From: a virus
DNA length: 64,000 nucleotides
Virus record (IMG/VR): IMGVR_UViG_3300012988_000003
Location: 5,004-69,003 of that record
Reading direction: 5' to 3' (one strand)
Part shown: piece by piece, positions 53,105-53,742 of the stretch
Layout: each line of letters begins with the position of its first letter
Position numbering within the stretch: the stretch's first letter is position 1
Notes under the pieces: generated by a model
What the model saw: the letters and a program-made list of their open reading frames with translations, nothing else
Told to the model about the DNA's origin: nothing
Database searches by the model: none
Program-made: the position numbers and the translations under genes

Positions 53105-53133
53105 TTGAAAAACGGCGAGAACTCTGCTACCTT
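53105..53133 (+). promoter_or_regulatory. Sigma70-type promoter of the leader/tRNA operon
   Basis: TTGAAA-17 bp-TACCTT with extended -10 TGn. Confidence 0.7.
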
Positions 53134-53142
53134 TAAACCTCA

Positions 53143-53205
53143 ATGAATTTCATCACGGCAACCCCGACAGCGACACCAGCCACTACGGGTGGAGTGTACA
53201 CATAA
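53143..53205 (+). CDS. Attenuator leader peptide MNFITATPTATPATTGGVYT
   Basis: 20 codons; codons 5-17 are all Thr/Ala/Pro/Gly, matching the downstream tRNAs; near-leaderless start. Confidence 0.75.
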   Translation: MNFITATPTATPATTGGVYT

Positions 53206-53232
53206 GGGGATGCTGAAGGTTTGTTTTCGCCG

Positions 53233-53263
53233 AGGCTCCCCAAGTGGGAGCCTTTAGTGTTTT
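53233..53263 (+). terminator. Attenuator terminator hairpin upstream of the tRNA array
   Basis: AGGCTCCC-caagt-GGGAGCCT-TTAGTGTTTT; 5' arm can alternatively pair with 53206-53214. Confidence 0.75.
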
Positions 53264-53267
53264 ATGG

Positions 53268-53341
53268 GCGGGTTTGGTATAGGGGCTGTGCCCCGGTCTT
53301 CCAAACCGGAGACGCTGGTTCAAGTCCAGCAACCCGCTCCA
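53268..53341 (+). tRNA. tRNA-Gly(TCC)
   Basis: GCGGGTT/AACCCGC acceptor, CCGGT-ctTCCaa-ACCGG, TTCAAGT loop, CCA. Confidence 0.9.
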
Positions 53342-53345
53342 ATGA

Positions 53346-53421
53346 GCCTGGGTAGCTCAGACGGCAGAGCGCCGCCCTCGTAACGCGGAGGTCGCCGGTT
53401 CAACTCCGGCCCTTGGCTCCA
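53346..53421 (+). tRNA. tRNA-Thr(CGT)
   Basis: Cloverleaf, ctCGTaa loop, CCA; mismatches in acceptor and anticodon stems. Confidence 0.85.
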
Positions 53422-53423
53422 GA

Positions 53424-53497
53424 GCCTCTGTAGTTTAGTGGCAGAATACGCGCATGGTAAGCGCGTGGCCTGGGTTCGATTCCCAGCGTTGGCTCCA
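53424..53497 (+). tRNA. tRNA-Thr(GGT)
   Basis: CGCGC-atGGTaa-GCGCG, GTTCGATT, CCA; two acceptor mismatches. Confidence 0.8.
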
Positions 53498-53503
53498 AAG
53501 TTT

Positions 53504-53580
53504 GCCGGTCGCAGCAGTGTTGGAACTGCACTCGCCTTGTAAGCGAGAGTAAGCGGGTTCGACTCCCGTCGCCGGCTCCA
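53504..53580 (+). tRNA. tRNA-Thr(TGT)
   Basis: CTCGC-ctTGTaa-GCGAG, GTTCGACT, CCA. Confidence 0.85.
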
Positions 53581-53586
53581 AAATGT

Positions 53587-53661
53587 GGGCGCGTAGTGTT
53601 AGCGAGAGCACGGCCGGCTTGCACCCGGTAGGCGCTGGTTTGAATCCAGTCGTGTCCACCA
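53587..53661 (+). tRNA. tRNA-Ala(TGC)
   Basis: G3.U70 identity pair, A73, GCCGG-ctTGCac-CCGGT, CCA; T loop TTTGAAT. Confidence 0.85.
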
Positions 53662-53665
53662 ATGT

Positions 53666-53742
53666 CGGGGTGTCGGGTAATCCGGTCGCCCACATGCCTT
53701 GGGAGCATGCTTATGGAGGTTCAAATCCTCTCACCCCGACCA
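53666..53742 (+). tRNA. tRNA-Pro(TGG)
   Basis: CGGGGTG/CACCCCG, CATGC-ctTGGga-GCATG, CCA. Confidence 0.88.

What the first reader, a model, noticed from the sequence alone, without database searches (positions are those of the whole stretch)
53105..53742. Phage tRNA array controlled by a ribosome-stalling attenuator whose leader codons match the encoded tRNAs
Seen: a promoter (TTGAAA-17-TGnTACCTT) is followed within ~10 nt by a 20-codon ORF, MNFITATPTATPATTGGVYT. Codons 5-17 are exclusively Thr/Ala/Pro/Gly (7 Thr in the ORF using all four Thr codons, 3 Ala, 2 Pro, 2 Gly). The array encodes exactly Gly(TCC), Thr(CGT), Thr(GGT), Thr(TGT), Ala(TGC) and Pro(TGG). Three alternative pairings exist. 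Protector: CGGCAACCCC (53156-65) with GGGGATGCTG (53206-15). Antiterminator: GGGGATGCT (53206-14) with GGCTCCCC (53234-41). Terminator: AGGCTCCC/GGGAGCCT + T tract (53233-63). The antiterminator strand starts immediately after the stop codon, so a terminating ribosome would mask it and a ribosome stalled on T/A/P/G codons would free it. Established: this is the geometry of trp/his/thr attenuators, which normally control amino-acid biosynthesis genes. Inference: the phage senses depletion of these charged tRNAs (starvation, heavy late-gene demand, or cleavage by a host anticodon nuclease) and transcribes replacements on demand. I am not aware of attenuation being described for phage tRNA arrays.
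Basis: partly seen in the sequence, partly recalled or inferred. Interest (0 to 1): 0.95.

Follow-up and report, generated by a model that had tools for sequence, protein, structure and literature searches.

The report
Leader-peptide attenuator before phage tRNA genes
A soil phage places its only six tRNA genes behind a tiny test gene spelled almost entirely in the four amino acids those tRNAs carry and wired to a switchable transcription stop, so it probably makes the tRNAs only when those codons are read slowly.

Summary
The 20-codon ORF (53143-53205) holds a 13-codon run of only Thr, Ala, Pro and Gly codons. That is the longest such run in all six frames of the 64-kb window. It lies 62 nt upstream of the phage's only six tRNA genes, which are Gly, Thr x3, Ala and Pro.

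Folds with ribosome masks reproduce the three pairings. The terminator's 5' arm is sequestered by about -10 to -12 kcal/mol when a ribosome sits at codons 6-12, and by about -1 to -2 kcal/mol with no ribosome or with one at the stop codon. None of 600 shuffles gives that contrast.

Weak points:
- The ORF has no Shine-Dalgarno sequence, so the start would have to be leaderless or nearly so.
- The -10 hexamer is weak.
- No homologue of the module was found anywhere.
- The three closest relatives seen lack the whole ~700-bp cassette, so conservation could not be tested.

My own survey of other phage tRNA blocks found the same design sporadically. The clearest case is a 330-kb phage contig (RRPQPQQPRR before Pro/Gln/Arg tRNAs).

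Five paper searches found no published account. This scan has noted the same idea before on other DNA, in giant phages. Verdict: probably a real attenuator (0.6), a new variant of a known mechanism.

The parts
52758..53051 (-). Divergent neighbour gene (97 aa, unknown function). Its start codon marks the left edge of the cassette.
   Evidence: ORF list. Eight homologues besides itself (alignment). No PHROG family.
53053..53763 (.). Cassette of about 700 bp (promoter, leader, hairpin, six tRNAs). It is present here and replaced by about 58-76 other bases in the relatives.
   Evidence: Alignment with L002. Logan contigs of runs X2 and X3 join 53051 and 53033 to 53765 with 59 and 76 other letters.
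53105..53133 (+). Promoter-like site: TTGAAA, 17 nt, TGnTACCTT. It would put the transcript start 0-5 nt before the ATG.
   Evidence: Read. The pattern TTGAMA-N17-TANNNT occurs twice in 64 kb against 0.52 expected. It is not called by the tool's sigma-70 scan. No start site has been mapped.
53143..53205 (+). Leader ORF of 20 codons, MNFITATPTATPATTGGVYT, with no Shine-Dalgarno sequence.
   Evidence: Upstream 25 nt printed.
53155..53193 (+). Run of 13 sensor codons (Thr x6, Ala x3, Pro x2, Gly x2).
   Evidence: Longest such run in six frames of the window. Best 10-codon window has region p of about 0.0008.
53156..53165 (+). Region 1 (protector strand), inside codons 5-8.
   Evidence: Pairs with 53206-53215 in the unconstrained fold. 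Arm duplex -13.6 kcal/mol.
53206..53215 (+). Region 2. It starts at the base after the stop codon and pairs either with region 1 or with region 3.
53232..53254 (+). Terminator hairpin (regions 3 and 4): 9 pairs, loop of 5, -15.8 kcal/mol.
   Evidence: Terminator scan. Folds.
53255..53265 (+). Interrupted T tract (TAGTGTTTTAT). The first tRNA starts at 53268.
53268..53341 (+). tRNA-Gly (UCC)
53346..53421 (+). tRNA-Thr (CGU)
53424..53497 (+). tRNA-Thr (GGU)
53504..53580 (+). tRNA-Thr (UGU), the weakest tRNA score (36.5 bits).
53587..53661 (+). tRNA-Ala (UGC)
53666..53742 (+). tRNA-Pro (UGG). Its D arm is unusual compared with three other phage tRNA-Pro genes.
53792..53869 (+). Small basic ORF (25 aa, MATGKTKTKKTKAKNKKVTRMKRAA) with an AAGGGG ribosome-binding site. 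It is conserved in L002 and here is probably co-transcribed with the array (inference).

Best explanation
A ribosome-mediated (leader-peptide) transcription attenuator controls the phage's only tRNA operon.

Proposed mechanism:
1. Transcription starts at or a few bases before the AUG of a 20-codon leader.
2. A ribosome reads 13 consecutive Thr/Ala/Pro/Gly codons. Eleven of them are standard Watson-Crick or wobble matches to the six anticodons encoded downstream.
3. If decoding is fast, the ribosome reaches the stop codon and covers region 2. The terminator hairpin (53232-53254) then forms 14 nt before the first tRNA gene and transcription ends.
4. If the ribosome is held on codons 5-14, it covers region 1. 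Region 2 pairs with the terminator's 5' arm, and RNA polymerase reads on through the six tRNA genes and probably the small basic ORF behind them.
5. With no ribosome at all, regions 1 and 2 pair and the terminator forms.

Because the product of read-through is the very tRNAs whose shortage causes the stall, the circuit would be a self-limiting tRNA homeostat.

Shown here: the sequence elements, the codon and anticodon match, the thermodynamic switch under masks, and the cassette nature. Inferred: the promoter and start site, leaderless translation, actual termination, and the physiological trigger.
For: 1. The leader's four commonest residues (T7, A3, P2, G2) are exactly the four isotypes of the array, and Thr, which has three tRNAs, is the commonest.
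2. The 13-codon run is the longest in six frames of 64 kb, against a base rate of 0.275. The phage proteome is only 30% T+A+P+G.
3. The six tRNAs are the phage's whole tRNA set.
4. Masked folds cut at 53245 give the 2:3 helix for A-site codons 5-16. With the mask at the stop codon the 2:3 helix cannot form, and the full-length fold gives the terminator.
5. Sequestration energy of the terminator arm: -12.4, -10.6 and -9.9 kcal/mol for stalls at codons 6, 9 and 12; -1.0 with no ribosome; -1.8 at the stop codon. None of 600 shuffles reaches this contrast, and 6 of 600 pass a looser rule.
6. Helix energies are balanced: 2:3 is -15.4, 3:4 is -15.8 and 1:2 is -23.4 kcal/mol.
7. The hairpin is one of the terminator-like sites of the scan. 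No promoter-like site lies between it and the tRNAs.
8. Independent look-alikes found by my own unbiased survey:
   - L023, a 329.8-kb phage contig: MVYANNIRRPQPQQPRRLYA, with an SD. Region 2 starts at the stop codon, and a 14-pair terminator follows, before Pro-Gln-Pro and then Gln, Gln, Arg and Pro tRNAs. Its switch contrast was reached by 0 of 300 shuffles.
   - Mesorhizobium phage Cp1R7A-A1: an ORF holding VVIIPEVEPV, followed by a strong hairpin and T run, before Val-Ile-Val-Glu-Glu.
   - L018...LRPTPRTTTRPTR* before Pro-Thr-Arg.
9. Leaderless short ORFs acting as codon-run attenuators are documented in mycobacteria (abstract of 10.1101/834739).
Against: - There is no Shine-Dalgarno sequence before the ATG. 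Translation needs a leaderless or near-leaderless start, and no start site is mapped.
- The -10 hexamer matches 3 of 6, and the tool's promoter scan does not call the site.
- No homologue of the leader or of the array was found. The searches were blastn against 50,697 phage records and six exact patterns in IMG/VR; five found nothing, and the tRNA-Pro 3' end found only unrelated arrays. The Logan word search listed only the probable source run (X1) as holding more than a small share, and none of the four other runs laid covers the leader. So there is no conservation or covariation evidence.
- The closest relatives lack the whole cassette.
- The T tract is interrupted and the host is unknown, so use of intrinsic terminators is assumed.
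- The whole-leader fold is only z = -1.89.
- The switch statistic was designed after seeing the structure. A first, cruder metric misclassified the real sequence and was dropped.
- The effect weakens from codon 15 on (-3.8 kcal/mol), so the two Gly codons may sense little.
- The design is sporadic. Only 4 of 90 other tRNA blocks passed corrected p < 0.01, and only 1 of 31 blocks in the 56-tRNA phage did.
- The Mesorhizobium phage case fails the switch statistic (44 of 300), and L018's hairpin overlaps its ORF end.
- More tRNA would not help if the stall came from amino-acid starvation.
Confidence: 0.6

Rival explanations
1. The hairpin is a fixed, leaky terminator or a 5' processing or stability element of the pre-tRNA. 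The short ORF is never translated, and its codon content is coincidence.
For: There is no Shine-Dalgarno sequence. The -10 is weak and is not called by the scan. The T tract is interrupted. The fold is only z = -1.89. No conservation could be shown.
Against: A 13-codon run of exactly the array's four amino acids is the longest in 128 kb of frames and sits 62 nt from the array. The mask-dependent contrast was reached by 0 of 600 shuffles. The same pairing of a matched ORF and a terminator recurs in unrelated phages.
Confidence: 0.15
2. The leader is translated and does regulate, but by another logic. Candidates are ribosome-polymerase coupling that blocks Rho or the hairpin (positive feedback: good decoding gives more tRNA), or control of transcript stability or processing rather than termination.
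For: In L018 the hairpin's 5' arm lies inside the last codons of the matched ORF. There a closely following ribosome, not a stalled one, would prevent the hairpin. In the Mesorhizobium phage the antiterminator forms even without a ribosome. The unknown host may not rely on intrinsic terminators.
Against: In the window, region 2 starts exactly after the stop codon and region 1 lies in the codon run. That is the trp-type layout, and the energies follow it. L023 shows the same layout.
Confidence: 0.12
3. The ORF is a relic. It would be a fragment of a Thr/Ala/Pro-rich coding segment brought in when the intergenic region was swapped by recombination, with no function.
For: The whole intergenic region is an indel between close relatives, with breakpoints at gene boundaries. 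T/A/P/G-rich runs exist in real genes of this phage, for example at 19369-19437.
Against: The ORF is bounded by an in-frame stop 9 nt before the ATG and sits precisely between a promoter-like site and a hairpin. Its codons are spread over all four Thr codons rather than following the phage's bias, in which ACC is 41% of Thr codons. No similarity to any phage record was found.
Confidence: 0.08

Closest known systems
Leader-peptide transcription attenuators of amino-acid operons (trpL, hisL, pheL; multivalent thrL and ilvGMEDA leaders). Their features are recalled from established knowledge.
   Same: A short ORF with a run of regulatory codons. Region 1 lies in the ORF and region 2 next to the stop codon. 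A 2:3 antiterminator competes with a 3:4 intrinsic terminator. Several amino acids are sensed at once, as in the thr and ilv leaders.
   Different: The regulated genes are tRNA genes, not biosynthetic enzymes, so the loop closes on tRNA supply rather than amino-acid supply. There is no Shine-Dalgarno sequence. It matches no Rfam leader family. It sits on a phage cassette.
Leaderless polycysteine short-ORF attenuators of mycobacteria (10.1101/834739; abstract read)
   Same: A leaderless short ORF whose codon run makes ribosome pausing the signal.
   Different: [quoted passage not shown] They respond to cysteine and control protein-coding operons. Here the output is transcription termination before tRNA genes.
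Stress-induced tRNA array (trn operon) of Anabaena PCC 7120 (PMC8421152, passages read; PMC10272220, search listing only)
   Same: An accessory tRNA array that is normally silent and is switched on when translation is impaired.
   Different: [quoted passage not shown] The words attenuat-, leader and terminator occur 0 times in PMC8421152.
T-box riboswitches (recalled)
   Same: Read-through of a terminator in response to the tRNA charging state.
   Different: T-boxes bind uncharged tRNA directly and need no translation. No T-box match was found in 52900-54100.

Membership tests
Leader-peptide (ribosome-mediated) transcription attenuators | A short leader ORF enriched in codons cognate to what the operon supplies. 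| tested here: met
   Thirteen consecutive Thr/Ala/Pro/Gly codons lie before Gly, Thr x3, Ala and Pro tRNA genes. This is the longest such run in the window.
Leader-peptide (ribosome-mediated) transcription attenuators | An intrinsic terminator between the leader ORF and the first regulated gene. | tested here: met
   Hairpin 53232-53254 (9 pairs, -15.8 kcal/mol) with a T-rich tail, 14 nt before the first tRNA. The tail is interrupted, and termination itself has not been shown.
Leader-peptide (ribosome-mediated) transcription attenuators | Mutually exclusive 1:2, 2:3 and 3:4 pairings placed so that a stalled ribosome frees region 2 and a terminating ribosome covers it. | tested here: met
   Masked folds. 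Sequestration energies are -12.4, -10.6 and -9.9 (stalled) against -1.0 (no ribosome) and -1.8 (stop), with 0 of 600 shuffles reaching this.
Leader-peptide (ribosome-mediated) transcription attenuators | A translation start signal for the leader ORF. | tested here: not met
   No GGAG, GAGG or AGGA in the 25 nt before the ATG. A leaderless start from the promoter-like site is an inference.
Leader-peptide (ribosome-mediated) transcription attenuators | The leader ORF and its pairings are conserved in relatives. | tested here: inconclusive
   No homologue of the cassette was found. The relatives lack it entirely.
Leader-peptide (ribosome-mediated) transcription attenuators | Read-through responds to the supply of the cognate charged tRNA. 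| not testable with these tools
   Needs reporter, Term-seq or in vitro assays. No raw RNA reads cover the leader.
Curated Rfam leader families (Thr, His, Trp, Leu leaders) and T-box | A match to the covariance model. | tested here: not met
   cmscan at E <= 1 over 52900-54100 lists only the six tRNAs and three chance-level hits to unrelated families.
Repressor-controlled stress tRNA arrays (Anabaena trn type) | [quoted passage not shown] | tested here: not met
   The repeat finder on 52900-54000 reports only similarities between tRNA genes and no repeats in 53053-53267.

The most novel reading that the evidence does not exclude
A portable, self-regulating tRNA cassette. A leaderless sensor ORF measures how fast the cell decodes exactly the codons that the cassette's own tRNAs read, and it opens a terminator only when they are read slowly. 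This would give the phage an autogenous tRNA homeostat that answers host tRNA depletion or cleavage. The same design would have arisen repeatedly in phages from 40 kb to over 300 kb.
Probability: 0.45. Interest if true: 0.9.

Novelty: new variant of a known kind. Interest (0 to 1): 0.8.

Why it matters
Phage tRNA genes are usually explained by codon usage or, more recently, as replacements for host tRNAs destroyed by defence nucleases. How their expression is controlled is largely unknown.

A leader-peptide attenuator in front of tRNA genes would be the first case in which the classic trp-type sensor feeds back on tRNA supply itself rather than on amino-acid synthesis. It would make "does the phage sense tRNA depletion?" directly testable with reporters and tRNA-depleting conditions.

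The window adds three points to the earlier notes of this scan on giant phages:
- The design also occurs in a mid-sized, integrase-bearing 69-kb phage.
- It covers the phage's entire tRNA set.
- It sits on a ~700-bp cassette that is present or absent among close relatives, with an apparently leaderless start.

It is also a compact natural part for synthetic circuits that report decoding speed of chosen codons.

Tried and rejected
- Homologue search. These found no relative of the leader or the array, so no covariation test was possible:
  - blastn (distant mode) of 52000-55000 against the phage collection gave 29 records, all short tRNA matches.
  - A degenerate leader-peptide pattern found nothing in IMG/VR.
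  - Four tRNA-derived exact patterns found nothing in IMG/VR.
- Neighbour-protein route. It gave relatives (L002, L005-L009, L004), none with a tRNA next to the gene. A tRNA search of five of their whole records (L008's was not searched) found single tRNAs over the cut-off in two distant ones. The genome-contig scan gave only a 17-residue match in a Kordia MAG, which I treat as spurious.
- Sequencing runs. Only the probable source run holds the stretch. Runs X2-X5 give no cover of 53099-53269. An RNA-library contig (X4) covers 53764-53804 but continues upstream with other letters, as in relatives without the cassette. None of this is evidence about transcription.
- Host. The integrase look-alikes span several phyla. 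Pfam gave nothing at or above its cut-off for 10 large ORFs, with one sub-threshold glycosyl-hydrolase match. The host stays unknown.
- Dropped metric. A first switch metric, which counted terminator-arm bases paired to anything upstream, scored the real sequence as "not free" because of a weak local hairpin. I dropped it and replaced it with sequestration energies. The second metric was designed after seeing the structure.
- Crude SD census. 24 of 52 long ORFs have an SD-like motif near a start in their first 50 codons, against a single-site background of 0.081. This is too crude to say how the host initiates translation.
- Tunturiibacter phage Tunturi_5 and Pantoea phage AAS21. None of their 32 tRNA blocks has a matched upstream window.
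- The Mesorhizobium phage leader has no homologue in the phage collection, and its switch statistic is not significant. The tool's terminator scan did not flag its hairpin.
- Alternative promoter between the leader and the tRNAs: none by scan or by eye.
- Repeats or operators in the intergenic region: none.
- Supplementary files of papers were closed and not consulted. They could hold start-site maps relevant to the Anabaena comparison.
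Full report
WHAT IS THERE. The window is bases 5004-69003 of a 69,003-bp virus record with direct terminal repeats, rated complete. It holds an integrase at 48419-49471 and a DNA-methyltransferase-like gene at 47395-48198. Most other proteins match no family. Runs that share words with the stretch are soil and rhizosphere metagenomes.

ARAGORN finds six tRNA genes at 53268-53742 on the + strand: Gly(tcc), Thr(cgt), Thr(ggt), Thr(tgt), Ala(tgc) and Pro(tgg). Rfam confirms them. They are the only tRNAs in the whole record.

Upstream, a 97-aa gene runs the other way from 53051. The 215-nt gap holds, in order:
- TTGAAA (53105-10), 17 nt, TGnTACCTT (53125-33).
- An ATG at 53143 opening MNFITATPTATPATTGGVYT, with a TAA stop at 53203-05.
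- A 9-pair hairpin at 53232-53254 with the tail TAGTGTTTTAT.
- The first tRNA, 14 nt later.

IS IT MORE THAN CHANCE? Codons 5-17 are all Thr, Ala, Pro or Gly. This 13-codon run is the longest in all six frames of the 64-kb window. The next are 12 and 10, both inside one gene near 19.4 kb, followed by eight runs of 8. The base rate of such codons is 0.275, and the phage's own proteins are 30% T+A+P+G. The leader's four commonest residues are exactly the array's four isotypes. Thr is the commonest and also has three of the six tRNAs. The Thr codons used are ACG x2, ACC, ACA x3 and ACT, whereas the phage's genes prefer ACC. By standard pairing rules (recalled), 11 of the 13 codons are read by the encoded anticodons. 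The two exceptions are GCC and GGT. In an unbiased scan for the best 10-codon window in any frame of the 300 nt upstream, the site has a Bonferroni-type region p of about 0.0008.

THE SWITCH. The unconstrained fold of 53140-53267 pairs 53156-65 with 53206-15 and forms the hairpin. It gives -43.0 kcal/mol but only z = -1.89, and 10 of 200 shuffles fold as well.

I masked a 30-nt ribosome footprint and cut the transcript at 53245, before the hairpin's 3' arm. For A-site codons 5-16 the minimum-energy fold pairs 53206-14 with 53234-41. With the mask at the stop codon region 2 is covered, that helix cannot form, and the full-length fold keeps the terminator.

I then measured how much energy is lost when the terminator's 5' arm is forced single-stranded:
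- No ribosome: -1.0 kcal/mol.
- Stall at codon 6, 9 or 12: -12.4, -10.6, -9.9.
- Stall at codon 15: -3.8.
- Ribosome at the stop codon: -1.8.

None of 600 dinucleotide shuffles of 53143-53232 reaches this contrast, and 6 of 600 pass a looser rule. The metric was chosen after seeing the structure, and a cruder one had failed. Taken alone, the helices are balanced: 1:2 is -23.4, 2:3 is -15.4 and 3:4 is -15.8 kcal/mol. This is the layout of the trp-type attenuators (recalled knowledge). No promoter-like site lies between the hairpin and the tRNAs, so the tRNAs must be transcribed through the hairpin.

WEAK POINTS.
- There is no Shine-Dalgarno sequence. The promoter-like site would place the start 0-5 nt before the AUG, so translation would have to be leaderless or nearly so. 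That is documented for sensory short ORFs in mycobacteria (abstract of 10.1101/834739), but the host here is unknown.
- The -10 matches 3 of 6 and the tool's scan does not call it. The looser pattern TTGAMA-N17-TANNNT occurs twice in the window against 0.52 expected.
- The T tract is interrupted.
- The two Gly codons lie where a stalled ribosome is predicted to have little effect.

RELATIVES. The nearest relative in IMG/VR (L002, 69,388 bp, neighbour protein 80% identical) has the same flanking genes, but about 58 bp stands in place of 53053-53763. Contigs of two other runs (45,852 nt in X2 and 618 nt in X3) join 53051 and 53033 to 53765 with 59 and 76 other letters. More distant relatives have no tRNA beside the neighbour gene. 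The promoter, leader, hairpin and tRNA unit is therefore a cassette-like indel whose edges fall at gene boundaries. In L002 a promoter-like TTGTGT-16-TAAAGT (read by eye) precedes the conserved small basic ORF. In the window that -10 is gone, so the small ORF (53792-53869) is probably co-transcribed with the tRNAs (inference).

DOES THE DESIGN OCCUR ELSEWHERE? Notes of this scan report the same idea on other DNA, in giant phages. I treated them as leads and ran my own survey.

(a) Three named phages that shared tRNA similarity with the window, 42 tRNA blocks in all. One block passes at region p 0.0006. In Mesorhizobium phage Cp1R7A-A1, the ORF MNLNVVIIPEVEPVLASGREIVRV has an AAGGA ribosome-binding site. 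It is followed by a 10-position hairpin with one mismatch and a T5 run, before the Val-Ile-Val-Glu-Glu block. Its switch statistic is not significant (44 of 300), and the tool's terminator scan did not flag the hairpin. The next-best block has p = 0.088.

(b) Eighteen IMG/VR loci that share the 3' 28 bases of the window's tRNA-Pro. Nine hold tRNAs, giving 48 blocks. Some loci are relatives of each other, for example L022 and L031. Three blocks pass p < 0.01:
- L023, from a 329.8-kb contig with 56 + strand tRNAs (ARAGORN) and 58 tRNA-model matches. It encodes MVYANNIRRPQPQQPRRLYA with an AAGGA site. GGUGAGG overlaps the stop codon and is complementary to the terminator's 5' arm. A 14-pair terminator with a T run follows. 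After it come Pro-Gln-Pro and then Gln, Gln, Arg and Pro tRNAs. Its switch contrast was reached by 0 of 300 shuffles.
- L018, from a 40.5-kb contig. It encodes MICMMLRPTPRTTTRPTR* with 12 of 12 codons in the set of the Pro-Thr-Arg block that starts 30 nt later. Its hairpin overlaps the ORF end and is not terminator-like by the scan, so its logic is unclear.
- L027, a weak Met case that I did not follow up.

(c) In the 56-tRNA phage only 1 of 31 blocks has such an ORF. No non-cognate set (0 of 27) scores as well on it.

The design is therefore real as a recurrent sequence pattern, at 4 of 90 blocks in (a) and (b) against fewer than 1 expected. It is sporadic, not a general rule.

MECHANISM. I commit, at 0.6, to ribosome-mediated transcription attenuation, as set out under Best explanation. 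Because read-through yields the tRNAs whose shortage stalls the ribosome, the loop is self-limiting. The trigger is inference. It could be host tRNA depletion or cleavage, host shut-off, or codon demand. Amino-acid starvation would also stall the ribosome, but more tRNA would not relieve it. The rivals are a fixed leaky terminator with an untranslated chance ORF (0.15), a translated leader working by another logic (0.12), and a recombination relic (0.08).

KNOWN OR NEW. Five full-text searches listed no paper describing leader-peptide attenuation of tRNA genes, in phages or in cells. The nearest items are three. The Anabaena trn operon is induced by translational stress through promoter repeats (PMC8421152, passages read, where attenuat-, leader and terminator occur 0 times). 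The TrcR paper was seen only as a search listing. The mycobacterial leaderless Cys short ORFs were read as an abstract. Rfam has no matching family. Subscription journals are mostly outside the library, and supplements were closed, so absence from print is not proven.

I rate it a new variant of a known kind: the classic attenuator logic applied to tRNA genes, here with an apparently leaderless start and on a mobile cassette. This scan has found the same kind of thing before on other DNA.

Noticed in passing
L023:2548-2670 (IMG/VR contig of 329,800 nt; same place as L036, about 27384 in the joined L035+L036 coordinates): A leader ORF MVYANNIRRPQPQQPRRLYA with an AAGGA ribosome-binding site. 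The antiterminator strand overlaps the stop codon. A 14-pair terminator with a T run lies before Pro-Gln-Pro and then Gln, Gln, Arg and Pro tRNAs. Switch contrast reached by 0 of 300 shuffles.
   Followed up: yes
L015:698-852 (Mesorhizobium phage Cp1R7A-A1, MT188704.1, about 35020-35174): A short ORF MNLNVVIIPEVEPVLASGREIVRV (GTG start, AAGGA site) followed by a GC-rich hairpin and T5 run, 130 nt before the Val-Ile-Val-Glu-Glu tRNA block. The codon match has region p 0.0006. The switch statistic is not significant (44 of 300). The phage is cultured, so this is testable.
   Followed up: partly
L018:10208-10294 (IMG/VR contig of 40,516 nt): A short ORF MICMMLRPTPRTTTRPTR* whose last 12 codons are all Arg, Pro or Thr, 30 nt before a Pro-Thr-Arg tRNA block and, as in the window, next to a divergent gene. 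The hairpin overlaps the ORF end, so the logic may differ.
   Followed up: partly
L027:6570-6599: A Met-rich window (MHGMDMANLM) upstream of a single tRNA-Met, with region p 0.009. It could be chance.
   Followed up: no
window 53792-53869, and L002 at about 2914-2825 on the minus strand: A conserved tiny Lys/Thr-rich basic ORF (25 aa here, 29 aa in L002) with its own ribosome-binding site. Its middle part is replaced in other relatives (joint 53804 to 53875 in runs X2, X3 and X5). Function unknown.
   Followed up: partly
window 53241-53265 and 53935-53960: The leader's hairpin and tail and the region after the small ORF share CCAAG..GGAGCC followed by a T-rich tail. This could be a duplicated terminator or chance.
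   Followed up: no
L035/L036 (G007:C1:143500-176500) and L032:3690: ARAGORN calls tRNAs with anticodons cta (labelled Pyl) and tta (labelled Stop) in the 330-kb phage contig, and a cta tRNA in a 440-kb contig. These are suppressor-like tRNAs that hint at stop-codon recoding.
   Followed up: no
window 53666-53742: The D arm of the window's tRNA-Pro differs strongly from three other phage tRNA-Pro genes that share its 3' 28 bases. tRNA-Thr(tgt) scores only 36.5 bits. Another note of this scan (e1-6192412) also remarks on non-canonical stems.
   Followed up: partly
window 47219-47247 (-): The only other match in the window to TTGAMA-N17-TANNNT. It lies between the methyltransferase and integrase block and leftward genes, and is a possible promoter of a regulatory region.
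   Followed up: no
window 22869-29873: A single 2,334-aa ORF that I did not examine.
   Followed up: no
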